Translations under genes and position numbers: made by a program
Notes under the pieces: model-generated
Told to the model about the DNA's origin: nothing
Databases searched by the model: none
What the model saw: only the letters and a program-made list of their open reading frames with translations
Source of the DNA: a virus
Lineage: Duplodnaviria > Heunggongvirae > Uroviricota > Caudoviricetes
Virus record (IMG/VR): IMGVR_UViG_2778261515_000019
Coordinates: 1 to 38,450 of that record
Strand: one strand, 5' to 3'
DNA length: 38,450 nt
Part shown: piece after piece, positions 837-35,244 of the stretch
Layout: every line of letters starts with the position of its first letter
Position numbering within the stretch: position 1 is the first letter of the stretch

Positions 837-1394
837 ATGAAAGAAGAATTAACCCTTACAGAAATTTCCCGTTTATATGGCTATTCATTGAATGGTGGCG
901 GTAAGCGATGGTTAGAAAGGGGACTACCTTATAACACAAATACAAGACGTGTTCCGGTCAAGGAAGGTTGCGATTGGGTGCTAAAGAACATCATTAACCC
1001 GCTTAAACAAACTTCCATCAAAGAACAAATCGACGTAGAGAAATTACGCCGTGAGAGAGCATTAGCGGACGCAGCCGAACGAGAGAACCAGGAAGCAATG
1101 AATCTCCTGATTCCCGTCGGGTATGTGGAGCAGGAGCTAGCGGAATACTGCGGGAAAGTGAAGCAGACTATTTTGCAGATCGCCACAATCGACGCTTTAG
1201 AAATTCTTGAATCTGCCACTGACCAGAAAACATTAAAGAATAAGCTAAGGGAGATTATCGAGCGTCGTTTAAATGAAGTAGGGGACTTGTTCGAAAATGC
1301 AGATTTGGGAGAAGACGAGGAAGAAGAATTACCATTAATGGATGAACCGGAAGAACAAGAACCAGAAGAAGACGATGAATTTGATGTGTCTTAA
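837..1394 (+). CDS. Terminase small subunit-like DNA-binding protein (Nu1-type N-terminal HTH, acidic C-terminus)
   Basis: Strong RBS GGAGG; N-terminal HTH LTEISRLYGYS...WLERGLPY, GGGK and EKLRRE motifs reminiscent of lambda Nu1; Glu/Asp-rich tail. Confidence 0.45.
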   Translation: MKEELTLTEISRLYGYSLNGGGKRWLERGLPYNTNTRRVPVKEGCDWVLKNIINPLKQTSIKEQIDVEKLRRERALADAAERENQEAMNLLIPVGYVEQELAEYCGKVKQTILQIATIDALEILESATDQKTLKNKLREIIERRLNEVGDLFENADLGEDEEEELPLMDEPEEQEPEEDDEFDVS

Positions 1395-2070: not shown

Positions 2071-3072
2071 TTAAGCAACCAAACGAAGGGTAGGTCTTGC
2101 TTTCTTAATTTCATGTTTAATTTCTGGCTTAGTAAGTTTGCACAGTTCATCAATCGGCTGTAAGGTTGCTGGCGATCTACGTTGCGCGTACTTCTTATCT
2201 AAGCTAGCCCACAGATCCCGCGCTTCTTCTACTTCAACCAAAAGAATATTAGCTTGATGATAGAACTTAACCGCATCTTCCCACGTTTTAGCATTCTTGA
2301 TCTTAGTCTTCATGCTGTTAAATCGGCCTAGAAGCTGTTTTGCTTGTGCCTCTGCTTCTTTACGTGGGCGATCCCGTTCTTCCTGCTCTGCTTTCTCTTT
2401 GGCCTTAATCGCTTCCAGATTGGCTTTATATGCACAAACTTGATGGTCGTGGTCTTCAATACATGCTGGAACTTTAGGTTTTGTCACATAGAATTGAAAC
2501 ACAGTTTTTCCTAAATTGCCTTCCACATCGATAGGGAAGGTGTAGGATTTCATGTCGCTAAGTTCAACGCTGTTATCGTCGGTAGACACCAAAGCCAGAT
2601 TATAACGGCAATAGCTATTTTCTTTAATGCGGATCGTATAAACGTTTGATGTTTTCGGCGTACACTGAACAACATTACCAAAAGCGAAGACAGTAGCGAC
2701 ACCACCACGGCTAATCACAACCATAGCAACGCCTTTCTTCTCTTCATCGTAAAACCCACTAAGTTCATAACCAACCACAGAATAAACCAGACGATCACCA
2801 GTTTTATTGATGAAGCTGTTAATCATAGTATGTTCTTCTACCGTCAGCTTGATACCGTGTTTCATGATTTCTTTAATGACATTCTCAGAATCTTTAGCGC
2901 GGGGATTCTGAATAGAAAACAATTCCTGATAATAATCACCGCCGTTAAGATTATCGGTGAATTTGAAGTTTGCGGTAACTCCACCGTCAAAGGTGGAGGT
3001 CAGACGAACGTTTACCAGTGATTCAGTTTCTTCTTTGTTGAGTTTTTTGTTGTCGATTGCGTAAATGTTCAT
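2071..3072 (-). CDS. Hypothetical protein, 333 aa, globular N-terminal region plus charged C-terminal coiled-coil-like region
   Basis: Long ORF, 27-bp gap to upstream gene on same strand; KE-rich helical segment KEKAEQEERDRPRKEAEAQAKQ; no family recognised. Confidence 0.6.
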   Translation of the reverse strand: MNIYAIDNKKLNKEETESLVNVRLTSTFDGGVTANFKFTDNLNGGDYYQELFSIQNPRAKDSENVIKEIMKHGIKLTVEEHTMINSFINKTGDRLVYSVVGYELSGFYDEEKKGVAMVVISRGGVATVFAFGNVVQCTPKTSNVYTIRIKENSYCRYNLALVSTDDNSVELSDMKSYTFPIDVEGNLGKTVFQFYVTKPKVPACIEDHDHQVCAYKANLEAIKAKEKAEQEERDRPRKEAEAQAKQLLGRFNSMKTKIKNAKTWEDAVKFYHQANILLVEVEEARDLWASLDKKYAQRRSPATLQPIDELCKLTKPEIKHEIKKARPTLRLVA

Positions 3073-3099: not shown

Positions 3100-4101
3100 T
3101 TAAGCTGCAAAATCAAGTAATTCGCGGTCCATCTCATCCATAGCCGGAATGGTTGGAACATATGGTTTATATCCTTCTTCTACATCAAGAAGGTTGTTTA
3201 AGCTGGCATCAGAAATATCACAAGAAACCACGGTTAACGCTGGTTTGATAATCGGCTGATCAACAGTAACCGCCTCCGGTGCTTCTTTTTCTTCTTTCGC
3301 TTCTTCCTGGGTAGCTGCCGGAACTACTGCTACCTTAACTTCCGGCGCTTTAACTTCTTTTGCTTCCAGTTCTTCTACACGGATTTCAAGAACTTCAATT
3401 TCTTTTTTCAGACTAATGTTTTCTTCCATCAGCATAGCGAATTTGCGTTCCATCTCAGCAAGACGTTGCTCAAAAGCACGATGCGCATCAGACAGAATCT
3501 GAATATCACGCTGCTGTAATTCTTCTTCGTAGTTGGAAACGGTTTTTTCTTTAGTGGTTTCTTTCCATACTGCCTTATCAACAGCGTTAACATTCAGTTT
3601 AGCTTTGTTGGAAACGAAGAAAGAAATATTGAATTTCTCACCGTGAGCACAATCAGACCATGCACCAACAACACTAGAAGCCAGAGCAAAGTTTTTAACT
3701 TTACCATTAACGAAACGGCCTTTAGCATCGCGGCGGGAAGCGTGGATCATGTTACCCCAGAGGCTACCAGCTTCATCTTGCAGGATAGACACTACATAGG
3801 ATTCGTCGCCGTTCTTGTAAGCGATAGCATATACTTCGCGCTGGTCTGGTTTAACCATTGCTTTCAAAGTAGCTTTCTTACGCTCTAAACCACGGTATTC
3901 TTTTTTCCAGTCGGAACCAGCATGATAGAGAGTGGTGTACAGAGAATCGATAGATTCTTCTTTATAAATATTAGTGCCAATAGTTAATTCGTCGGCTTCG
4001 TTGCTGCCATAGTTACGAATTTCGATATCTGCATCGTACTGATATTTTGCGGTGTCTGCGGTGTTGCTGTAAACGGTAATAGAGAAGTTATTTTGTTTCA
4101 T
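3100..4101 (-). CDS. Hypothetical protein, 333 aa, N-terminal globular domain, central coiled coil, acidic C-terminus
   Basis: RBS AGGAA upstream of ATG; heptad-like LAEMERKFAMLMEENISLKKEIEVLEIRVEELEAKE; same length as neighbour; no family recognised. Confidence 0.6.
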   Translation of the reverse strand: MKQNNFSITVYSNTADTAKYQYDADIEIRNYGSNEADELTIGTNIYKEESIDSLYTTLYHAGSDWKKEYRGLERKKATLKAMVKPDQREVYAIAYKNGDESYVVSILQDEAGSLWGNMIHASRRDAKGRFVNGKVKNFALASSVVGAWSDCAHGEKFNISFFVSNKAKLNVNAVDKAVWKETTKEKTVSNYEEELQQRDIQILSDAHRAFEQRLAEMERKFAMLMEENISLKKEIEVLEIRVEELEAKEVKAPEVKVAVVPAATQEEAKEEKEAPEAVTVDQPIIKPALTVVSCDISDASLNNLLDVEEGYKPYVPTIPAMDEMDRELLDFAA

Positions 4102-4202: not shown

Positions 4203-4385
4203 TCACCAAACGGTAGCTTCAATCTTCACCTTGATTTCATATTTCTTTAAGAGTTTGTGGAAGGTTGATTTATCGATGCCTTCATTTTTAAACCACTCTT
4301 CAATCCTCACTCCCGGCGTTAGTTCAAAGTAGCGTTTTGCTTTTTCCAACATAATCTCGCGAGTAAATTTAACAGTTCTAGCCAT
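4203..4385 (-). CDS. Small HTH DNA-binding protein (60 aa from ATG at 4385; ORF track extends to 4421)
   Basis: RBS GAGGA 8 nt before ATG at 4385; HTH-like GIDKSTFHKLLKKYEI; first gene of minus-strand operon. Confidence 0.5.
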   Translation of the reverse strand: MARTVKFTREIMLEKAKRYFELTPGVRIEEWFKNEGIDKSTFHKLLKKYEIKVKIEATVW

Positions 4386-4484
4386 GTTACATCCTCTACA
4401 TTGTGGATTATTTTTTCTCATAAAAAGAGCTTTTCGCCCTTGATACTTCTATTTATAAAATGATTTTCAGAAAACCCTGTAAAA

Positions 4485-4506
4485 CCACTGTATATTCGAT
4501 CAGTGG
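4485..4506. promoter_or_regulatory. SOS-box-like palindrome (CTG-N10-CAG core) next to a promoter-like element for the minus-strand operon
   Basis: CCACTGTATATTCGATCAGTGG; left half ACTGTATAT matches the LexA consensus half-site as I recall it. Confidence 0.35.
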
Positions 4507-4569: not shown

Positions 4570-4591
4570 GCACTGTATATCTAACCAGTGC
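4570..4591. promoter_or_regulatory. Second SOS-box-like palindrome
   Basis: GCACTGTATATCTAACCAGTGC, same CACTG-N10-CAGTG architecture as 4485..4506. Confidence 0.3.
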
Positions 4592-4742
4592 CGTATTAAT
4601 TAACAGTGAATAAGGAGATTTTCAGAAGTGAACAATCATTTCTCACTTGTATTTAGTAGAGAGAAAATCTTGCTTATCATCTATATGGGGACTGTTTTGA
4701 AAATTTCAACCCCTACCAGTGAGAAAAAGTATAAAATAATCC

Positions 4743-4756
4743 TTGACAGTTGTCAA
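4743..4756. promoter_or_regulatory. Perfect 14-bp palindrome overlapping a -35-like hexamer
   Basis: TTGACAGTTGTCAA. Confidence 0.3.
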
Positions 4757-4957
4757 CACTCATGACCTAAGCGAGAAAAGGCTATCAAATTTTTTGTGCG
4801 AAAATGGCAAATAATGATTATCAACCTTTATAACCTATTATGGCACGGGGACCTTTTGACAATTTCTTTTAAATCATTAAGTTACAGCGATTTTTGATGA
4901 TTTTTTGGTTAAATAATATACAAGAATTTTCTATCAAAATATTTGAATGAATTTAAA

Positions 4958-5232
4958 GGTTTCCCCGCGATATCCCCACTTTAGAAGATGTATCCCCGTC
5001 ACCGTCCCCGCGTAAAATCCCCGTTTTGGAAGCAAAATCCCCCGGATTAGGGTAGTTTCCCCGCGATATCCCCGCGTAAAATCCCCGGTATTAGATGCGT
5101 ATTTTTATGTAAGTATATGATTTTAAATGCTTTCCCCGTGGTGTCCCCGTATCATCCCCACGTTATCCCCGACCTGTCCCCGTGGTATCCCTTCCCCGTC
5201 CCTTTCCCGTCCCCGTTTCAAAGTGGGGAAAC
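4958..5232. repeat. Iteron-like array of about 17 TCCCC(G) motifs, many spaced 10 to 11 bp
   Basis: Repeated units TTCCCCGCGATATCCCC and CCCCGCGTAAAATCCCC each occur twice; run TTTCCCCGTGGTGTCCCCGTATCATCCCCACGTTATCCCCGACCTGTCCCCGTGG; array bounded by GGTTTCCCC ... GGGGAAACC. Confidence 0.65.
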
Positions 5233-5269
5233 CAGTAATGACAGGGCTTAGAAGCGATCCAGACCTACA

Positions 5270-5310
5270 GACCAATATACCTACATACCATCAAACCAAT
5301 ATACCTACAA
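5270..5310. repeat. Direct repeat of 15 bp (ACCAATATACCTACA, two copies 11 bp apart)
   Basis: Exact duplication read directly. Confidence 0.45.
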
Positions 5311-5658
5311 AGATATTATGCGCCCTGCGGGGCGCGAGTAATCTGCTTCGAATCATTCAAGAAGGGATTTGTAATAGTGGTTACTAGATGATTCTAGATC
5401 ACTTTAATGATCATGAAAGGTATTGGTATCCCTTCGGGATTGCAACCTTCGGTTGCCAAATTGCTTCCTGATTATTATTTCTCCAAAAGAAAGATTCTTA
5501 TATTCTAAAGATACTTCTTCGTTTTGATGATGATTTAATCAAAATCTATGAAGGAGGCGAAGCCGACTGAATACCAATTCCTTTCAAATTAGACAAAAAT
5601 TTCTCGTTATAAATAATAGTGAACTTACTTTGATTCACTTTTTTAGAGGATTTCCACT

Positions 5659-8549: not shown

Positions 8550-10454
8550 ATGAAACTGATTTCAAATAAGGCAAAATTAAAAAAGATTCTCAGAAATATC
8601 TCTGCTGCAATTCGCCCACCTAAAGCCATGAAACCTAGCGAATGGGTAGAGGCTAATGTAGTTGCAACCGATGGTGTTAAAGCCGGATCGCTAATTAAAT
8701 TGCATCCCTTCCAACGTGGAATGATGGACGCGATCACCGAAGACCGTAGAAAAATTGTGTTTAAATGTTCGGCGCAGTTGGGTAAGACCATGATTCTTAA
8801 CGGAATTATCTTCCATCGGATCGCGAGTAACCCTACGAATATTGGGGTGTTGCAAAGTAACGTTAGGGAACTAAATTCTTGGATCGCTGGTAAGGTGAAG
8901 CCAGTATTAGAGGCAACCCCAGAATTAAAGGCGATGATCACCGACAAATCAGATCGCAATGCCGTTAACAACTCATCGATTATTCAGCTTCGTAACGGAT
9001 CATTCATGTATTTCATGTCGTTGAATAGTCCGTCACATCTTCGCGGTAAAACACTCCCTTTGATTATTCTTGATGAAGTTGATGCGGCTGATGAGTCAGA
9101 CGAAGGGAACCCGATCCAGCTAGCGGAACAACGCGCAACCACTTTCGGGGAAGATGCAAGGATCGTAATTGCTTCCACTCCAACCGCTCGTGATGGGGCG
9201 ATTAACCAACAATGGGAACTCTCGGATAAGAGAAAATATCATGTCGTTTGTCAGCATTGCGGACACCGACACGTAATGGAATGGAGTAACGTTTATTTCG
9301 ATTGGCATACGATTAACGGTAAGTCATTACCTAACCCAGATACAGCCGTTTACCGCTGTCCTGCATGTGAAACCGACTGGACCGAAGGGGATCGCCTACG
9401 TGCTGTTGCTAAGGGAGAATGGGTCGCCACCGAACCAAATGCGGAAGTAATCGGTTTTCATGCTAACCGCCTTATGTCTCCGTTTAGTTCTATCCGTGCG
9501 TGTGTGGTGGACTTTGCTGATAGCTACGCGAATATGTCCCTGGCAACGTTCTACAATACAGTCCTCGGTGAAACCTTCGATGATCTTAACGAAGACCGCA
9601 CAGCCGACGAATTAGAAACGCTGAAAACTGATATTAGACTAGACAATATTCCTGATGATGTACTGGCTCTGGTTGGTGGAGTTGACCAGCAAAAAGACCG
9701 TCTGGAATCTACCTTGCTGGGTATTTCTCGTAAAGGGCTATGCGTAGTTGATCACCGATCATTCTATGATGTGAACTGCGAACGCCACGAATCGCCAGCA
9801 TATGACCAGCTTTACAACTTCCTGAAAGCTAAATTCTATACCCGATCCGGTGAACGAATCCCGATGTTATCTGCTTTCGTGGACTCATCGAACGGACGAG
9901 CTACAAACGTGATCTATCGATTCTGTAGTCGGTGGCAAAATCTAACCGCCATTAAAGGCGCAAGCAATGTTGATGCACCAATCCTTCCGGTAAAAGACAC
10001 AAGAACGGGTGGTTTTACCCTTAAAATTCTGGGCGTAAACAACCTTAAAACGATGATCCGTGAAATGATTAACCGGAATTTGAGAGATGGCGATCCTCAC
10101 ACTGTCTTCCAGATTGGTGACGTTCCTGATGACTATTGCGAGCAATTGCTTTCTGAACAGTTGAAACGGCAGGGTAATACCACACGTTGGGTAAAAGTTG
10201 GTCAGCAACGAAACGAGGCTCTCGACTGCCTGGCTTATTCCTATGCTGCTTCTCGCCATGTACTCAATAAAATGTCATGGGAAAAACTCGAAGCCATCAA
10301 AGATAGTTTGAACCGTGAACCAGAAGAATCCGTAGAAGCTCCTAAATCGCAATCTGACGAGAAAATAGAAGAAACTAAGCCAATCACACGACCACAACGT
10401 CAAAACATCGCCAGACGCCCAAATAGAGGCCGTGGCTGGGTAACATCGTTCTAA
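8550..10454 (+). CDS. terL: Terminase large subunit, GpA (lambda A) family
   Basis: 634 aa; motifs LHPFQRGMMDAI, ILDEVD, NTVLGETF, IKGAS, RNEALDC align with lambda gpA as recalled; start of long plus-strand morphogenesis operon. Confidence 0.85.
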   Translation: MKLISNKAKLKKILRNISAAIRPPKAMKPSEWVEANVVATDGVKAGSLIKLHPFQRGMMDAITEDRRKIVFKCSAQLGKTMILNGIIFHRIASNPTNIGVLQSNVRELNSWIAGKVKPVLEATPELKAMITDKSDRNAVNNSSIIQLRNGSFMYFMSLNSPSHLRGKTLPLIILDEVDAADESDEGNPIQLAEQRATTFGEDARIVIASTPTARDGAINQQWELSDKRKYHVVCQHCGHRHVMEWSNVYFDWHTINGKSLPNPDTAVYRCPACETDWTEGDRLRAVAKGEWVATEPNAEVIGFHANRLMSPFSSIRACVVDFADSYANMSLATFYNTVLGETFDDLNEDRTADELETLKTDIRLDNIPDDVLALVGGVDQQKDRLESTLLGISRKGLCVVDHRSFYDVNCERHESPAYDQLYNFLKAKFYTRSGERIPMLSAFVDSSNGRATNVIYRFCSRWQNLTAIKGASNVDAPILPVKDTRTGGFTLKILGVNNLKTMIREMINRNLRDGDPHTVFQIGDVPDDYCEQLLSEQLKRQGNTTRWVKVGQQRNEALDCLAYSYAASRHVLNKMSWEKLEAIKDSLNREPEESVEAPKSQSDEKIEETKPITRPQRQNIARRPNRGRGWVTSF

Positions 10455-14747: not shown

Positions 14748-15038
14748 ATGTTCAAATTATCAGAATCACAATTAAATCGAATGTTTAAAAGTGCTCCTGT
14801 ATTTTCGGTGGAAGGTGGTAAATCAATTCGTGCTTATCATGAAATTACTACTACCGACGAACAAGGGGTAATGACAGAGACAGAATTTCTATTTTGTCGT
14901 GAGGGAGACTTAAAGCAAGGTGATATTGTCATTGTAGAAAATCAGCGTTTCAAAGTTCAATACGTTAAGCGCAATGGTGATAATACTTCTGATTGCTTTA
15001 TTACTCTGGCAGGGGGTACACATGCTCGCTACCGTTAA
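14748..15038 (+). CDS. Head-tail connector/adaptor-position protein
   Basis: RBS AAGGGGGT; 96 aa; position after capsid gene. Confidence 0.45.
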   Translation: MFKLSESQLNRMFKSAPVFSVEGGKSIRAYHEITTTDEQGVMTETEFLFCREGDLKQGDIVIVENQRFKVQYVKRNGDNTSDCFITLAGGTHARYR

Positions 15039-15444
15039 TAATATGCCGAGACTGAAAATCAAACGCGCCTTGCAAGATATTATCGAACAAGATTTAGGTC
15101 TGGCTTTAAACGTAGAACAAACTCAGCAAGGCTTTAGTGATGACGTGGTTTGTTGGATCACTGGAATGAATGAGACTTACACGCGTGTTCGTGGTGGTAA
15201 TGCAATGCAAGCTGAATGCGTTATCGAAATGCAATTATATTCTCAGATTCATGAAACCAAAATTCATGAGGGTATTTGCCAGATAATCCAGATTCAGCCG
15301 GATAACCCACGTTTTAAAGATTTGGGCTTCGCTATTTCAGATATCACTCCAGTAGCTTCTAATACCGATTATGACGATGATTCTAGTGATGGTGGTATCG
15401 TTGGGACACTTAGCCTTAAATTTTCTTATGTAGCGCGTTTTTAA
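15022..15444 (+). CDS. Head closure / tail completion-position protein (start at ATG 15022 overlapping upstream gene by 17 nt)
   Basis: RBS AGGGGGT 5 nt before ATG 15022; track ORF starts further upstream at 14974. Confidence 0.4.
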   Translation: MLATVNNMPRLKIKRALQDIIEQDLGLALNVEQTQQGFSDDVVCWITGMNETYTRVRGGNAMQAECVIEMQLYSQIHETKIHEGICQIIQIQPDNPRFKDLGFAISDITPVASNTDYDDDSSDGGIVGTLSLKFSYVARF

Positions 15445-31863: not shown

Positions 31864-31896
31864 AACAAAAGCGCCTCTAGTGGGCGCTTTTTTGTT
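31864..31896. terminator. Bidirectional terminator between convergent plus operon and helicase gene
   Basis: AAGCGCC-TCTAGTG-GGCGCTT flanked by A-run and T-run. Confidence 0.65.
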
Positions 31897-33394
31897 ATAT
31901 AGCAATTGTTTTAGTTGCATAGCTGAACTTGTCGGTTAGATAATAGCGGATTCTCTCAAGTGCATGTTTTACCGCATAATTTTTATGCTTGACTTTTCCG
32001 TTACGACCGAATATACACAGATGATCTATAAGATCCCAGACCGTTGCAATATCCTTAGAACCATGTTTACGCAATGCACGACCGATACTCTGACGAACGA
32101 TAGTTGATTCCTTCACGGGATGACCGAAAATAACATGGTGCAAGTTCTTAATTGAAACACCAGTAGAGAACACACCATAGGATGCAACGCAAATGATCCC
32201 GGTTTCCCCTTCCGCTAATTTCTTAAATTCATCACGTTCTTCTGTCTTAACTCCACCGTCAATATAATAAACCTTGTTGTGTACCTTCTGTAACGCATCA
32301 TACATAAGTTTTCCGTGCTTAGTATTGCGGAACATCAGGAATACGTTTTCGCCCTTCTTAGCGAGTTTTAGCGCCAAATTACAAGCAAACTTATTTCGTC
32401 GTGGGTTAGACGTAATATACTTGATCTCTTCCGCATATTCTCTCCCCTTAACCGCGCTACATTCCTCATCGGTATAACGAAGGAAAAGACAGTTAATTTT
32501 CAGTTTTGTCACCTGCCCTTCTTCCATCAGGCGGTCAATACTCACGATCTTAGAAATATCACCGAAAAGCCCGACATACTGCATTAAATGGCACTTTGAT
32601 TCTTTCGGGGAACCAGTCATGCCGATCTTAAATTGGCAATGATTCATTCCGTTAATGATATTGGTAATATTTTTGGCACTAGCCTTATGCGATTCATCAA
32701 CTATCAACATTCCATATTGTCGGAACCATTCAGGAGGCATCTTGCAAGCTGATTGCCAGGTACTAACCGTGATTAACCTGTCTCCCGGATGTTTCCCGCT
32801 ACCACTCATCATTGTATGAATTGCTTCATAAGGGAATAACCGATAATCGATGAAATCATCCCTCATTTGAACCACTAGCGATGTAGTAGGGACAATGATT
32901 AACACTTTTCCGGTGTAATGCTCTAAGTACCAGCGAGACAGCATACAAGCAATCAATGACTTTCCGGCACTGGTAGGAAGAACCAGCATTCTACGGCGAT
33001 TATGAATACCCTGAAAGACTGCCTCCCTTTGATACCAGTAAGGATTGATTTTATTGGAACCGGAATACACTTCTAGGGAATCAATCCATTCATTAATCGC
33101 GTCTTTGGTTACATCTTCCTTCTCAAGTAATCTGGGGTCAATCCAGACTGAATACCCCATATTTTTAACGAAGACACCCAACGTTTTTAATAGTCCAATT
33201 GGTAGGGTGTTTTCATGCGTAAACAGTCTTATTCGTCCATCCCAGCCAGAATACTTGTAACGGGGGCTAAACCTAGCCCCTTCAACCTCAAACGAGAAAT
33301 AATCTCTTAATTCCATTCCGATAGAAGGAGAGCAATCAACCTTAACGAAACTGTAATCTTGAAAATGAATTTTAATATCTTGCATTAGTTCCAC
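31895..33394 (-). CDS. SF2 DNA helicase, UvsW-like
   Basis: Motif I LPTSAGKS, motif II LIVDESH; N-terminal IKIHFQDYSFVKVDCSP...LRDYFSFEVEGARF...WDGRIRLF strongly resembles T4 UvsW as recalled. Confidence 0.8.
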   Translation of the reverse strand: MELMQDIKIHFQDYSFVKVDCSPSIGMELRDYFSFEVEGARFSPRYKYSGWDGRIRLFTHENTLPIGLLKTLGVFVKNMGYSVWIDPRLLEKEDVTKDAINEWIDSLEVYSGSNKINPYWYQREAVFQGIHNRRRMLVLPTSAGKSLIACMLSRWYLEHYTGKVLIIVPTTSLVVQMRDDFIDYRLFPYEAIHTMMSGSGKHPGDRLITVSTWQSACKMPPEWFRQYGMLIVDESHKASAKNITNIINGMNHCQFKIGMTGSPKESKCHLMQYVGLFGDISKIVSIDRLMEEGQVTKLKINCLFLRYTDEECSAVKGREYAEEIKYITSNPRRNKFACNLALKLAKKGENVFLMFRNTKHGKLMYDALQKVHNKVYYIDGGVKTEERDEFKKLAEGETGIICVASYGVFSTGVSIKNLHHVIFGHPVKESTIVRQSIGRALRKHGSKDIATVWDLIDHLCIFGRNGKVKHKNYAVKHALERIRYYLTDKFSYATKTIAI

Positions 33395-33682
33395 TCCACA
33401 CTTGCAATATTCTTTATATTGTTTAGTGATTTATTGCAGTAGTGGAATGTTTCAGTTTTGCCGTATTCAATCCCGCCTATACCCACATCCAGATAGAGAA
33501 TGCAATAGTAAGACAATTTTCTCTGATAAATAGTAGTGAACTTATTATTTTAGAGGAAACTACTATGAAACTTGCTTACGCTGCCTAATGCAATTAAATT
33601 AGGCTATGTCACAACAAACAGTTGATAAATAGCCATTTTTATAGGGGAGTATCAGAACTCCCCTACAAACTGTTATTTGCAG

Positions 33683-34177
33683 TTATCTATACTCATTTGG
33701 AATTTCGATATGAAGTGTCTCACACAATAACTTCACATCATGTGCATCATTTTCATCAAACTCGTATCCCAGATGGAACATTACTTGACTATATGGTTCA
33801 ATACAGGAAACCTCTATTTCCTCAATTCTTCCTTTACCCGAAAAAGTTTCTACCGGAAAACAATCCCCATCATAAAGAATTTCACCTTCGTCCGTATATT
33901 CAAAACAATGCAAATCAATAATTCTGTTTTTCAAATCTTCCCATACAGTATGGTTCAATGTTGTATATTCCATCTTAATCTCATAAAAGCCATTAGCTTT
34001 CATTATTTCTATAAAGTTCTGATAATCGTTCTTTTCTACAAAAATGTCAATATCATTATGGGCTCTTGACTGATATCCAAGAAGAGCATCTACACCCCAT
34101 CCACCATCAAGAAAGACTTTAATCTCCGCATCTATTGCAAATTGAAGAATCTGTTTTACATCTGTTATATTGACCAT
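33683..34177 (-). CDS. lnuC: Lincosamide nucleotidyltransferase, Lnu family (lnu(C)-like), 164 aa
   Basis: Motifs FLDGGWGVDALLG, HNDIDIFV, FHLGYEFDENDAHD typical of Lin/Lnu nucleotidyltransferases; 495-bp ORF from ATG at 34177 (track ORF extends to 34246). Confidence 0.7.
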   Translation of the reverse strand: MVNITDVKQILQFAIDAEIKVFLDGGWGVDALLGYQSRAHNDIDIFVEKNDYQNFIEIMKANGFYEIKMEYTTLNHTVWEDLKNRIIDLHCFEYTDEGEILYDGDCFPVETFSGKGRIEEIEVSCIEPYSQVMFHLGYEFDENDAHDVKLLCETLHIEIPNEYR

Positions 34178-34200
34178 CTTATCATCTCCACAAATTCTAA

Positions 34201-35244
34201 TTAGGCGACCAGAGGAACTGCTGGTCTGTTTGATAAATCTCTGCATTTAGCAGTTTTCAATGTTGCCAAAACAAAAGTTAAGAAGATGTTCCTTTTCTCC
34301 ATGTCGCTTTCTTTGGCGTAATTTACAAGGTTATTCCACACAAGATAGTTGTTCAGATACTTGGTAGAAACACCGTTAAAGCCACGCATAAACCTCTTTA
34401 GCTGGCTATGGTAGCTATTGATATGTTGGATATTATAAATGCCTTTCTTGGCTTTGCCAGTCTTTAACTGCACAAGGTCAATGCCATTGGCATTTGTAAA
34501 TCTCACATAGGAGTTCATCTTGTCCGTAACAAGAGTGGAATTGGTCTTAATCCTACCATCATAAATATGATGTAAATCTCTTGTAGAAACTCTACCAGTA
34601 TTCGTAATCTTGGAGATAGACAAGCCATTCCTATTAACCGCACAAGGAACACATACCTTTTCTTGGGACAAGCCTCTGATATGTGTAGAATGACCACGCT
34701 TATGAGCCTTGCGTGGCATAGCAAATGTCTTACTCTTGCTATGATTGCCCTTGTACGAGATGGCGAAAAAAGTTTCGTCAGCCTCAATAATGCCGTCAAG
34801 GGTAACATCGTCTGCCATATTCTGAAGTGCATCCAAAATCTTGTGTCTCCAAAGGAATGCGGTGTTTCTGTGAATCCCACAAGCAACAGCAGTCTTACGA
34901 ATGGATAAGCCATTCATCATACAATCAATGTACTGCTCCCACACGGACAAGTCTTTTCTTGTACCAGACACAATGGAGTTCGTAGCAATCACGAAGGACT
35001 TGCCACAATCCTTACATACATATCGCTGTGTGCCATCTTTACGATGACCATTGCGAACCACATGGATACAGCCACAAAGAGGGCATACACGACCATTTGC
35101 AAAGCGTTCCTTTGCTACGAAATCTTCAATATTCAAAGACTTTACAAAGGCAGGACTTAAAAGCATTGTTTTAAGGCTTTCCTGCTCTGCGACAGTCAAC
35201 TTACCGATAATATCTAATGCGTCTTTGATAGTAGGCATATCCAA
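34201..35244 (-). CDS. IS1595-family (ISXO2-like) DDE transposase
   Basis: 347 aa; N-terminal zinc-ribbon CPLCGC...CKDCGK; DDE core; directly upstream of lnu gene inside the IR-bounded element. Confidence 0.75.
   Translation of the reverse strand: MDMPTIKDALDIIGKLTVAEQESLKTMLLSPAFVKSLNIEDFVAKERFANGRVCPLCGCIHVVRNGHRKDGTQRYVCKDCGKSFVIATNSIVSGTRKDLSVWEQYIDCMMNGLSIRKTAVACGIHRNTAFLWRHKILDALQNMADDVTLDGIIEADETFFAISYKGNHSKSKTFAMPRKAHKRGHSTHIRGLSQEKVCVPCAVNRNGLSISKITNTGRVSTRDLHHIYDGRIKTNSTLVTDKMNSYVRFTNANGIDLVQLKTGKAKKGIYNIQHINSYHSQLKRFMRGFNGVSTKYLNNYLVWNNLVNYAKESDMEKRNIFLTFVLATLKTAKCRDLSNRPAVPLVA

What the first reader, a model, noticed from the sequence alone, without database searches (positions are those of the whole stretch)
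4958..5232. Helically phased TCCCC(G) iteron array in a 1.2-kb non-coding region
About 17 copies of TCCCC(G) occur on one strand, many at 10-11 bp spacing (one helical turn), with duplicated longer units, bounded by inverted GGTTTCCCC / GGGGAAACC. One-face arrays like this are typical of origin iterons or of small-terminase or nucleoid-protein binding sites (pac/cos-adjacent). A 1.2-kb non-coding region is large for a phage.
Basis: seen in the sequence. Interest (0 to 1): 0.6.

Follow-up and report, generated by a model that had tools for sequence, protein, structure and literature searches.

The report
Swappable iteron array, likely prophage origin
A dense, one-stranded array of TCCCCG repeats in an uncharacterised E. 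coli prophage is one of at least five interchangeable repeat cassettes, each always paired with its own version of a neighbouring protein of unknown fold, which makes it most likely that protein's binding site and probably the phage's replication origin.

Summary
Sixteen exact TCCCC copies, plus two degenerate ones, lie on one strand in 4962-5214, where 0.12 are expected (P~1e-28). They form two clusters, each phased at 11 bp, separated by a 46-bp AT-rich spacer. An inverted copy closes the right end.

The window is an E. coli prophage inserted in hicB, from a lineage with no isolated relative. In related prophages the same position holds different repeats: TTGCCCCTGAA, AACCTACACTA, GTTTGCGATGT or GATGTACAAGG. 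In 29 of 29 distinct loci the repeat type matches the type of the N-terminal domain of a ~320-aa protein encoded 0.9 kb to the left (window 3100-4101, minus strand). The genes around and between them (p60, p149, TerS, TerL, Rha) assort freely. That protein has a basic or neutral N-domain with no detectable fold relative, a coiled coil and an acidic tail.

The terminase link is not supported, because TerS and TerL types do not follow the array type.

Best reading (about 0.4): an iteron-type replication origin with its cognate initiator. The array abuts the least stable AT-rich DNA of the region, occurs at one locus only, and the phage has no other recognisable initiator.

Rivals are an immunity or operator array, a centromere-like site, and a packaging site. 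No binding or replication was shown here.

The parts
4909..4948 (.). Conserved AT-rich element TTAAATAATATACAAGAATTTTCTATCAAAATATTTGAAT that abuts the left end of the array. It is the candidate unwinding element or host-factor site.
   Evidence: It is the least stable 40-mer of the whole non-coding region in types A, B (L019), C and E. It is nearly invariant across types. It contains a near-match to the IHF consensus but no exact match.
4958..5094 (+). Left iteron cluster: 9 TCCCC sites (consensus WWTCCCCGYG) with spacings of 11-20 bp. It includes two pairs of longer duplicated units and two copies of TCCCC(C)GGWTTAG.
   Evidence: The TCCCCGGTATTAG motif is amplified to 9 copies in relative L033.
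5095..5128 (.). AT-rich spacer between the two clusters. It contains TGATTTTAAATG.
   Evidence: It is the second least stable 40-mer of the non-coding region. A TGATTTTAWRG element sits in the equivalent spacer of types D and E.
5129..5215 (+). Right iteron cluster: 8 units in exact 11-bp register (YRTCCCCGTNN, the last ones degenerate), plus two out-of-register copies.
   Evidence: The right clusters of types D and E are also tandem 10-11-bp units.
5220..5242 (-). Terminal inverted iteron (AAAGTGGGGAAACC) followed by the conserved CCAGTAATGAC.
   Evidence: Inverted pairs I11 and I22. Types B, C and D also end with an inverted copy, and CCAGTAATGAC is conserved in type D.
5243..5385 (.). Type-associated tail of the swapped cassette: ACCTACA repeats with an 8-bp period at 5260-5307, and the GC hairpin GCGCCCTGCGGGGCGC at 5322-5337.
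   Evidence: Similarity to type B and C loci resumes only near 5385. Repeat family D3.
3100..4101 (-). Gene of the 333-aa protein proposed to bind the array. It has a type-specific N-domain (~aa 1-185), a coiled coil (~190-250) and an acidic, probably disordered tail.
   Evidence: Its N-domain type matches the array type in 29/29 loci. It has no hit in Pfam, PHROGs, NCBIfam or PADLOC. The AlphaFold2 model has no fold match. The coiled coil gives the only PDB sequence hits. The N-domain has pI 7.7-9.5 and the rest pI 4.1-4.7.
2071..3072 (-). Second 333-aa protein (A2). It is present only in type A and type E loci, and its role is unknown.
   Evidence: It is 29% identical to the 363-aa protein of L033. 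It is not detectably homologous to the first protein.
4203..4385 (-). Gene of a 60-aa basic HTH-like protein (p60), lying between the proposed binder gene and the array.
   Evidence: Its alleles assort independently of array type.
4728..4756 (-). Conserved leftward promoter-like site TTGACA-17-TATACT. Its -35 hexamer lies in the palindrome TTGACAGTTGTCAA.
   Evidence: It matches 11 of 12 consensus positions. It is conserved in types A, B (L019), C and E, and recognisable in D.

Best explanation
The array is the cis-acting binding platform of the 333-aa protein encoded 0.9 kb to its left (3100-4101, minus strand), and the pair most likely forms the phage's replication origin and initiator.

Proposed mechanism (all inferred). 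After induction the leftward operon (p60, the 333-aa protein, A2) is expressed. The N-terminal domain reads one TCCCCG unit per helical turn. The coiled coil links bound monomers into a one-faced filament over the two clusters. The resulting strain melts the adjacent low-stability AT-rich DNA, either the conserved 4909-4948 element or the 5095-5128 spacer. The acidic C-terminal tail recruits a helicase or other host replication proteins.

What is shown: the array is real; it is one of at least five cassettes at the same position; and it co-varies strictly with the N-domain of that protein.

What is inferred: that the protein binds the DNA, that the site is an origin, and every step after binding.
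For: 1. Five repeat types occupy the same position between conserved flanks.
2. Array type equals the protein's N-domain type in 29/29 distinct loci. The 33 complete E. coli genomes with a B array are the same 33 that carry an intact B N-domain.
3. Everything else assorts freely, including p60 and the left non-coding DNA that lie between gene and array. So the pairing survives frequent recombination.
4. Within a type the N-domain is 97-100% conserved while the C-terminal half drifts to 72-87%.
5. The anatomy is origin-like. Direct repeats are phased at 11 bp. The array abuts the least stable DNA of the region and is split by the second least stable stretch; type D shows the same property with unrelated sequence.
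6. The motif is confined to this one locus in the phage.
7. The phage has no recognisable initiator, primase, polymerase or helicase loader. Its only recognisable replication-type gene is a UvsW-like helicase.
8. The domain layout (type-specific basic or neutral head, coiled coil, acidic tail) suits an initiator that oligomerises on DNA and recruits partners.
9. Two LexA-box-like sites lie in the leader of the operon, which fits expression only after induction.
10. Known origins built this way are the SaPI ori (PMC9371898) and the lambdoid ori (PMC7466680).
Against: 1. No binding, replication or unwinding was shown.
2. The protein has no similarity to any known initiator or DNA-binding fold. 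The structure model is only moderately confident (pLDDT 59).
3. No consistent DnaA boxes or exact IHF sites were found.
4. Nearly all repeats point the same way, unlike SaPI origins.
5. Types B and C lack a clear central AT-rich spacer.
6. The module is absent from plasmids, so autonomous replication has no natural precedent.
7. LexA boxes are missing from most type B loci.
8. Gene and array are only 0.9 kb apart, so linkage contributes to the co-variation.
9. Co-variation would be just as expected for a repressor and its operators.
Confidence: 0.4

Rival explanations
1. Immunity or regulatory array. The 333-aa protein is a repressor or other transcription regulator. The array is its multi-site operator in the divergent control region between the leftward operon and the rightward operon that leads into the structural genes. 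The five types would then be heteroimmune specificities.
For: 1. The layout is that of an immunity region: regulator genes read leftward and lytic or late genes read rightward from the same 1.2-kb region.
2. No CI-like repressor is recognisable anywhere in the phage.
3. Co-variation of regulator and operator among close relatives is typical of immunity modules.
4. Strain UTME-9 carries two prophages of this family with identical Rha but different array types, B and C.
Against: 1. The array does not overlap either promoter-like site. The leftward one ends about 200 bp to its left and the rightward one starts about 360 bp to its right.
2. Seventeen one-stranded sites at a single locus is unlike known operators.
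3. The LexA-like boxes suggest the operon is off in the lysogen.
4. One genome appears to carry two type B copies.
5. The protein has no HTH or CI-like domain.
Confidence: 0.25
2. Centromere-like or tethering site. The protein coats the phased repeats into a segrosome-like complex, as ParR does on parC or TubR on tubC. This would position or segregate the excised phage genome, and may autoregulate a promoter embedded between the clusters.
For: 1. Tandem 11-bp units split into two blocks with an AT-rich gap resemble R1 parC and tubC (PMC5016525).
2. A weak leftward promoter-like site (GGGACA-16-TAAAAT) spans the gap.
3. Repeat number varies from 5 to 14 within type B, which such sites tolerate.
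4. A coiled coil with a C-terminal tail could contact a partner.
Against: 1. No ParA, ParM or TubZ-type NTPase is encoded in the window.
2. The phage integrates through a large serine recombinase and is never found on plasmids.
3. The binder is not a small ribbon-helix-helix or winged-helix protein.
Confidence: 0.1
3. Packaging recognition site (cosB or pac). The repeats would be bound by the TerS-like protein, or by the 333-aa protein acting as a packaging specificity factor.
For: 1. Terminase recognition sites are often phased short repeats flanking a cleavage region (general knowledge of lambda cosB and P1 pac).
2. A TerS-like gene (837-1394) and a lambda gpA-type TerL (8550-10454) are in the neighbourhood.
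Against: 1. TerS and TerL alleles do not follow array type. Type A loci carry both TerS classes (53% identity) and both TerL classes (54% identity).
2. The C-terminal half of the type B protein is 98-100% identical in loci with different TerL classes.
3. The array is more than 3 kb from both terminase genes.
4. The 333-aa gene sits in the leftward, non-structural operon.
Confidence: 0.05

Closest known systems
SaPI / PICI replication origins (Rep helicase-initiator plus ori)
   Same: Short repeats (penta- or hexanucleotide cores) occur in 6-12 or more copies, split by an AT-rich centre. Repeat sequence and initiator specificity differ between related elements. The cis site lies next to the initiator gene (PMC9371898).
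   Different: Here nearly all repeats share one orientation. The site is 0.9 kb upstream of the gene rather than immediately downstream. The protein has no helicase or ATPase domain and no winged helix.
Lambdoid ori and O protein
   Same: Several initiator-binding iterons are followed by an AT-rich tract that melts. Iteron number varies between relatives: 4 in lambda and 6 in Stx phages (PMC7466680). By general knowledge, the initiator has a type-specific N-terminal part and a partner-recruiting C-terminal part.
   Different: Lambda iterons are ~19-bp inverted repeats located inside the O gene. Here the units are 11-bp direct repeats in non-coding DNA, and the protein is unrelated to O.
Plasmid R1 parC / ParR, and tubC / TubR centromeres
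   Same: Tandem ~11-bp direct repeats lie in two blocks around a gap. They are expected to be coated cooperatively on one face (PMC5016525).
   Different: No motor NTPase is present. The binder is a 333-aa protein of unknown fold. The element is an integrating prophage.
Lambda cosB R sites / P1 pac hexamers
   Same: Phased short repeats occur in a phage non-coding region that also holds an IHF-like site.
   Different: There is no co-variation with terminase subunits and no adjacency to them.

Membership tests
Iteron-type replication origin (lambda ori, plasmid oriV, SaPI ori) | Multiple copies of a short motif in a compact array, helically phased | tested here: met
   There are 16 exact plus 2 degenerate copies in 253 bp, with 11-bp phase within each cluster.
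Iteron-type replication origin (lambda ori, plasmid oriV, SaPI ori) | Adjacent AT-rich region of low duplex stability | tested here: met
   The least stable 40-mer of the non-coding region abuts the array at 4909-4948. The second least stable is the internal spacer. Type D shows the same pattern.
Iteron-type replication origin (lambda ori, plasmid oriV, SaPI ori) | Cognate initiator encoded nearby, with specificity matched to the iterons | tested here: inconclusive
   Co-variation with the N-domain of the 333-aa protein is 29/29. That the protein binds DNA or initiates replication was not shown.
Iteron-type replication origin (lambda ori, plasmid oriV, SaPI ori) | Initiator belongs to a known Rep, O or helicase-initiator family | tested here: not met
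   No hit in Pfam, PHROGs, NCBIfam or PDB, and no fold match.
Iteron-type replication origin (lambda ori, plasmid oriV, SaPI ori) | Host-factor sites (DnaA boxes, IHF) | tested here: inconclusive
   No consistent DnaA or exact IHF consensus across types. There are isolated matches in types B, D and E.
Iteron-type replication origin (lambda ori, plasmid oriV, SaPI ori) | Supports autonomous or induced replication | not testable with these tools
   This needs a plasmid ori assay or marker-frequency analysis.
SaPI/PICI ori | Iterons on the two sides of the AT-rich centre point in opposite directions | tested here: not met
   All sites are on the plus strand except one terminal inverted copy.
Type II/III plasmid centromere (parC, tubC) | Partner cytomotive NTPase (ParM, TubZ or ParA) in the same operon | tested here: not met
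   No such domain in any neighbouring ORF.
Type II/III plasmid centromere (parC, tubC) | Tandem repeats in one or two blocks upstream of the operon, with a promoter in the gap | tested here: inconclusive
   The two blocks are present. Only a weak promoter-like site (9 of 12 positions) lies in the gap.
Terminase recognition site (cosB / pac) | Specificity matched to the small and large terminase subunits | tested here: not met
   TerS and TerL classes assort independently of array type.
Terminase recognition site (cosB / pac) | Genome termini or first cut at or next to the site | not testable with these tools
   This needs sequencing of virion DNA.
Phage immunity operator | Sites overlap the promoters they control | tested here: not met
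   The promoter-like sites at 4728-4756 and 5590-5617 lie 200-360 bp outside the array. Unrecognised promoters are not excluded.
Phage immunity operator | Regulator and sites co-vary between heteroimmune relatives | tested here: met
   29/29 loci. An origin-initiator pair would show the same pattern.

The most novel reading that the evidence does not exclude
The ~320-aa proteins are a previously unknown class of sequence-specific DNA-binding proteins. Their N-domain has no detectable fold relative. They would read 6-11-bp direct repeats as a coiled-coil-linked filament. At least five naturally orthogonal protein-repeat pairs occur in one E. coli prophage lineage.

In a phage with no recognisable repressor or initiator, this single module might set both replication and incompatibility or immunity, with host LexA as the switch.
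Probability: 0.25. Interest if true: 0.75.

Novelty: new variant of a known kind. Interest (0 to 1): 0.58.

Why it matters
If the pairing reflects direct binding, this lineage offers five natural, mutually orthogonal protein-DNA recognition pairs built on an unclassified fold. That would be useful for studying how specificity evolves, and possibly as orthogonal parts.

It would also identify the replication or control centre of a widespread but unstudied group of E. coli prophages. The type B protein alone is seen on more than a thousand contigs, and in these prophages almost every early gene is annotated 'hypothetical'.

The hypothesis is directly testable with gel-shift assays, a plasmid origin assay and induction sequencing on available strains.

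Tried and rejected
- **Known RNA or mobile repeat.** Rfam gave only sub-threshold snoRNA noise. ARAGORN found nothing in the region.
- **Coding sequence.** The overlapping ORFs (for example 5127-5387) are not conserved, and PGAP annotates none.
- **Match to isolated phages or plasmids.** None for the DNA, for the 333-aa protein, or for the conserved 200-aa neighbour.
- **Remote homology of the protein.** A word-seeded search, a profile search and an exhaustive HMMER search over 1.84 billion representatives found only Escherichia and Shigella 'hypothetical' proteins.
- **Paralogy of the two 333-aa proteins.** Rejected.
- **Species-level relatives.** The GTDB representative-genome scan with the p149 profile found none.
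- **Polylysogeny as a test of immunity.** It gave one B+C double lysogen and one apparent B+B genome, which is too few to decide.
- **Two partial type B proteins as possible chimeras.** They turned out to be IS-disrupted prophage remnants.
- **DnaA and IHF consensus scans.** Inconsistent across types.

Full report
**1. The observation**

The region 4958-5232 carries 16 exact TCCCC on the plus strand, 13 of them TCCCCG, plus two degenerate TCCCT. One inverted copy (GGGGA) lies at 5225. The window as a whole has 27 plus-strand copies. The background rate predicts 0.12 per 275 bp, giving P~1e-28, and no shuffle of the region reached even 7 copies.

There are two clusters:
- The left cluster (4962-5082, 9 sites) has spacings of 11-20 bp. 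It contains exact duplicated longer units, such as the 19-mer TCCCCGCGTAAAATCCCCG at 5005 and 5069.
- The right cluster (5133-5210) has eight units in exact 11-bp register.

Each cluster is significantly phased at 11 bp, but the two are not in phase with each other. A 46-bp AT-rich gap separates them. The inverted ends GGTTTCCCC / GGGGAAACC are real. The 1.2-kb stretch has no credible gene.

**2. Genomic context**

The window is a prophage inserted in the E. coli hicB gene. The same element in strain RMDEC332 is bounded by the two halves of hicB.

It is a siphovirus-type temperate phage with these recognisable genes:
- a lambda gpA-type large terminase;
- a fused protease-capsid protein;
- T4-like fibre genes;
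- a UvsW-like helicase;
- a large serine recombinase.

It has no recognisable repressor, initiator, primase or polymerase. No isolated phage or plasmid is related at the DNA level, and none encodes the proteins next to the array.

The array lies in a divergent control region:
- To the left, on the minus strand, are a 60-aa HTH-like protein (p60, 4203-4385), a 333-aa protein (3100-4101) and a second 333-aa protein (A2, 2071-3072).
- To the right, on the plus strand, are an acidic 149-aa protein (p149), a 110-aa protein (p110), a Rha-family regulator and then the structural genes.

**3. The key result: a swappable cassette**

I fetched relatives through the neighbouring genes p149 and p110, through E. 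coli genome searches, and through a distant homologue of the 333-aa protein. At exactly the same position, between conserved flanks, they carry different repeat arrays:

| Type | Repeat unit | Loci |
|---|---|---|
| A | TCCCCG | window, L001/L002, L017 |
| B | TTGCCCCTGAA | 15 loci |
| C | AACCTACACTA | 9 loci |
| D | GTTTGCGATGT, with TTTACGAT in the left cluster | L021 |
| E | GATGTACAAGG, preceded by 9 copies of TCCCC(C)GGTATTAG | L033 |

The architecture recurs. Units are mostly on one strand and spaced at roughly one or two helical turns. Types A, D and E have an AT-rich spacer followed by a right-hand run of about 8 tandem 10-11-bp units. Types A-D end with an inverted copy. A conserved sequence follows: CCAGTAATGAC in A and D, GGAAACCCAG...GGCTTAGAAG in E. 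Copy number varies from 5 to 14 within type B.

**4. Co-variation with the neighbouring protein**

The ~313-371-aa protein encoded left of p60 also comes in five types. Its N-terminal ~185 residues are 19-47% identical between types and 97-100% identical within a type. Its C-terminal half is less conserved within a type, at 72-100%.

Array type and N-domain type agree in 29 of 29 distinct loci. Among 5,426 complete E. coli genomes, the 33 with a B array are the same 33 with an intact B N-domain. Two further partial hits are IS-disrupted remnants.

Every other feature assorts across array types:
- p60 alleles, although p60 lies between the gene and the array;
- the LexA-box-type left non-coding DNA;
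- p149, Rha, TerS and TerL alleles.

Crossovers are therefore frequent on both sides and in the middle, yet no mismatched pair was seen. Part of this could be linkage, since gene and array are 0.9 kb apart, or replacement of only the middle segment. I take it as good but indirect evidence that the N-domain recognises the repeats.

**5. The protein**

No family library names it. Sequence searches over billions of proteins find only Escherichia and Shigella hypotheticals.

The second protein, A2, occurs only in types A and E and is not homologous to the first. Type E has two motif families and two proteins, so A2-like proteins may read a second motif. That is speculation.

**6. What the array is not**

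It is not a terminase site. Type A loci carry both TerS classes (53% identity) and both TerL classes (54% identity). The window's TerS is 88-96% identical to the TerS of type B and C loci.

It is not a host nucleoid-protein site, because the motif changes between relatives in the same host species.

It is not a known RNA.

**7. Most likely function**

I favour an iteron-type origin with its initiator, at a confidence of about 0.4. The reasons are:
- The least stable 40-mer of the entire non-coding region is a conserved AT-rich element that abuts the array (4909-4948). The internal spacer is the second least stable. Type D shows the same property with unrelated sequence.
- The motif occurs at this one locus only.
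- The phage otherwise lacks an initiator.
- The protein's layout (type-specific head, oligomerising coiled coil, acidic tail) fits an initiator.
- Two LexA-box-like sites in the operon leader suggest expression only after induction.
- Short iterons split by an AT-rich centre and matched to an element-specific initiator are documented for SaPIs (PMC9371898). Iterons followed by an AT-rich tract, with variable iteron number, are documented for lambdoid phages (PMC7466680).

Against this reading:
- There is no known initiator fold.
- There are no consistent DnaA or IHF sites.
- The repeats are unidirectional.
- Types B and C lack a clear spacer.
- The module has no plasmid occurrence.

**8. Rivals**

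- **Immunity or operator array (0.25).** This fits the divergent layout, the lack of any recognisable repressor, and one B+C double lysogen with identical Rha. However, the array does not overlap the promoter-like sites, and the SOS boxes argue against expression in the lysogen.
- **Centromere-like site (0.1).** This fits the split 11-bp tandem design of R1 parC (PMC5016525), but there is no motor protein and the phage integrates.
- **Packaging site (0.05).** See section 6.

The remaining probability is for a function I have not thought of.

**9. Novelty**

The kind of element is known: a phased repeat array matched to a specific binder. This family, its five specificities and the unclassified protein have not been described in any source I could search. 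I rate it a new variant of a known kind, of moderate to good interest.

Noticed in passing
window 4488-4503 and 4573-4588: Two LexA-box-like sites, CCACTGTATATTCGATCAGTGG and GCACTGTATATCTAACCAGTGC, lie 85 bp apart in the leader of the leftward operon. They are conserved in types A and C and in some type B loci, but absent from most type B loci. Which promoter they control is unclear. With no CI-like repressor recognisable, host LexA may be part of the lysogeny switch.
   Followed up: partly
window 4640-4950 and 4420-4440: About 310 bp of non-coding DNA is at least 90% conserved across array types, more than the neighbouring genes. It includes a strong leftward promoter-like site (4728-4756) with a palindromic -35 region. 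A hairpin followed by a T-run on the minus strand sits just upstream of p60, and three different stems in relatives preserve its pairing. This suggests a ~300-nt leftward leader or small RNA that ends at a conserved terminator.
   Followed up: partly
window 5260-5307: An 8-bp-period repeat contains three ACCTACA copies. This is the core of the type C iteron. Two or three copies also occur beside the arrays of types B (L004, L006) and D (L021). They may be remnants of a type C array or sites for a shared factor.
   Followed up: partly
window 5322-5337 and 5428-5456: A GC-rich hairpin GCGCCC-TGCG-GGGCGC has no T-run after it. Two adjacent hairpins have TTCG loops (ATCCC-TTCG-GGAT and GCAACC-TTCG-GTTGC). 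Related loci carry other GC hairpins here. The leader of the rightward operon may be structured.
   Followed up: no
window 5468-5552: About 78% identity to intergenic DNA repeated two or three times in RB49-like T4-type phages (Krischvirus). In RB49 the match lies upstream of the small ORF RB49ORF130w. It looks like a shared early-promoter cassette between a temperate siphovirus and virulent myoviruses.
   Followed up: partly
window 5351-5365 and 5397-5411; L001, L033 and L004 right non-coding region: Another repeat family, AATCACTTTGAAGAT, lies between the array and p149. It has 2 copies in the window and 3-4 in relatives, and it is conserved across array types. It is probably a site for a conserved regulator such as Rha.
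   Followed up: no
window 837-1394 versus 8550-10454: The TerS-like gene lies 7 kb from the gpA-type TerL gene, separated from it by an oppositely oriented operon and the control region. Two TerL classes and two TerS classes (~54% identity each) circulate in otherwise near-identical prophages.
   Followed up: partly
window 31895-35244: A UvsW-like helicase is the only recognisable replication-type gene. Next to it lie a nucleotidyltransferase gene and an IS1595-family transposase gene. The RMDEC332 prophage has a different gene at the transposase position and an IS911 copy beyond the integrase.
   Followed up: partly
window 15209-15299 (minus strand): ARAGORN calls a 91-nt tRNA-Gln inside the plus-strand ORF 14974-15444 of the tail module. 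The unusual length and the location suggest a false positive.
   Followed up: no
L039 and L040 (E. coli UTME-9); L006: One strain carries two prophages of this family, types C and B, with identical Rha and 48-aa proteins. Relatives use at least two integration sites: hicB in the window, and next to ycdX in L006.
   Followed up: partly
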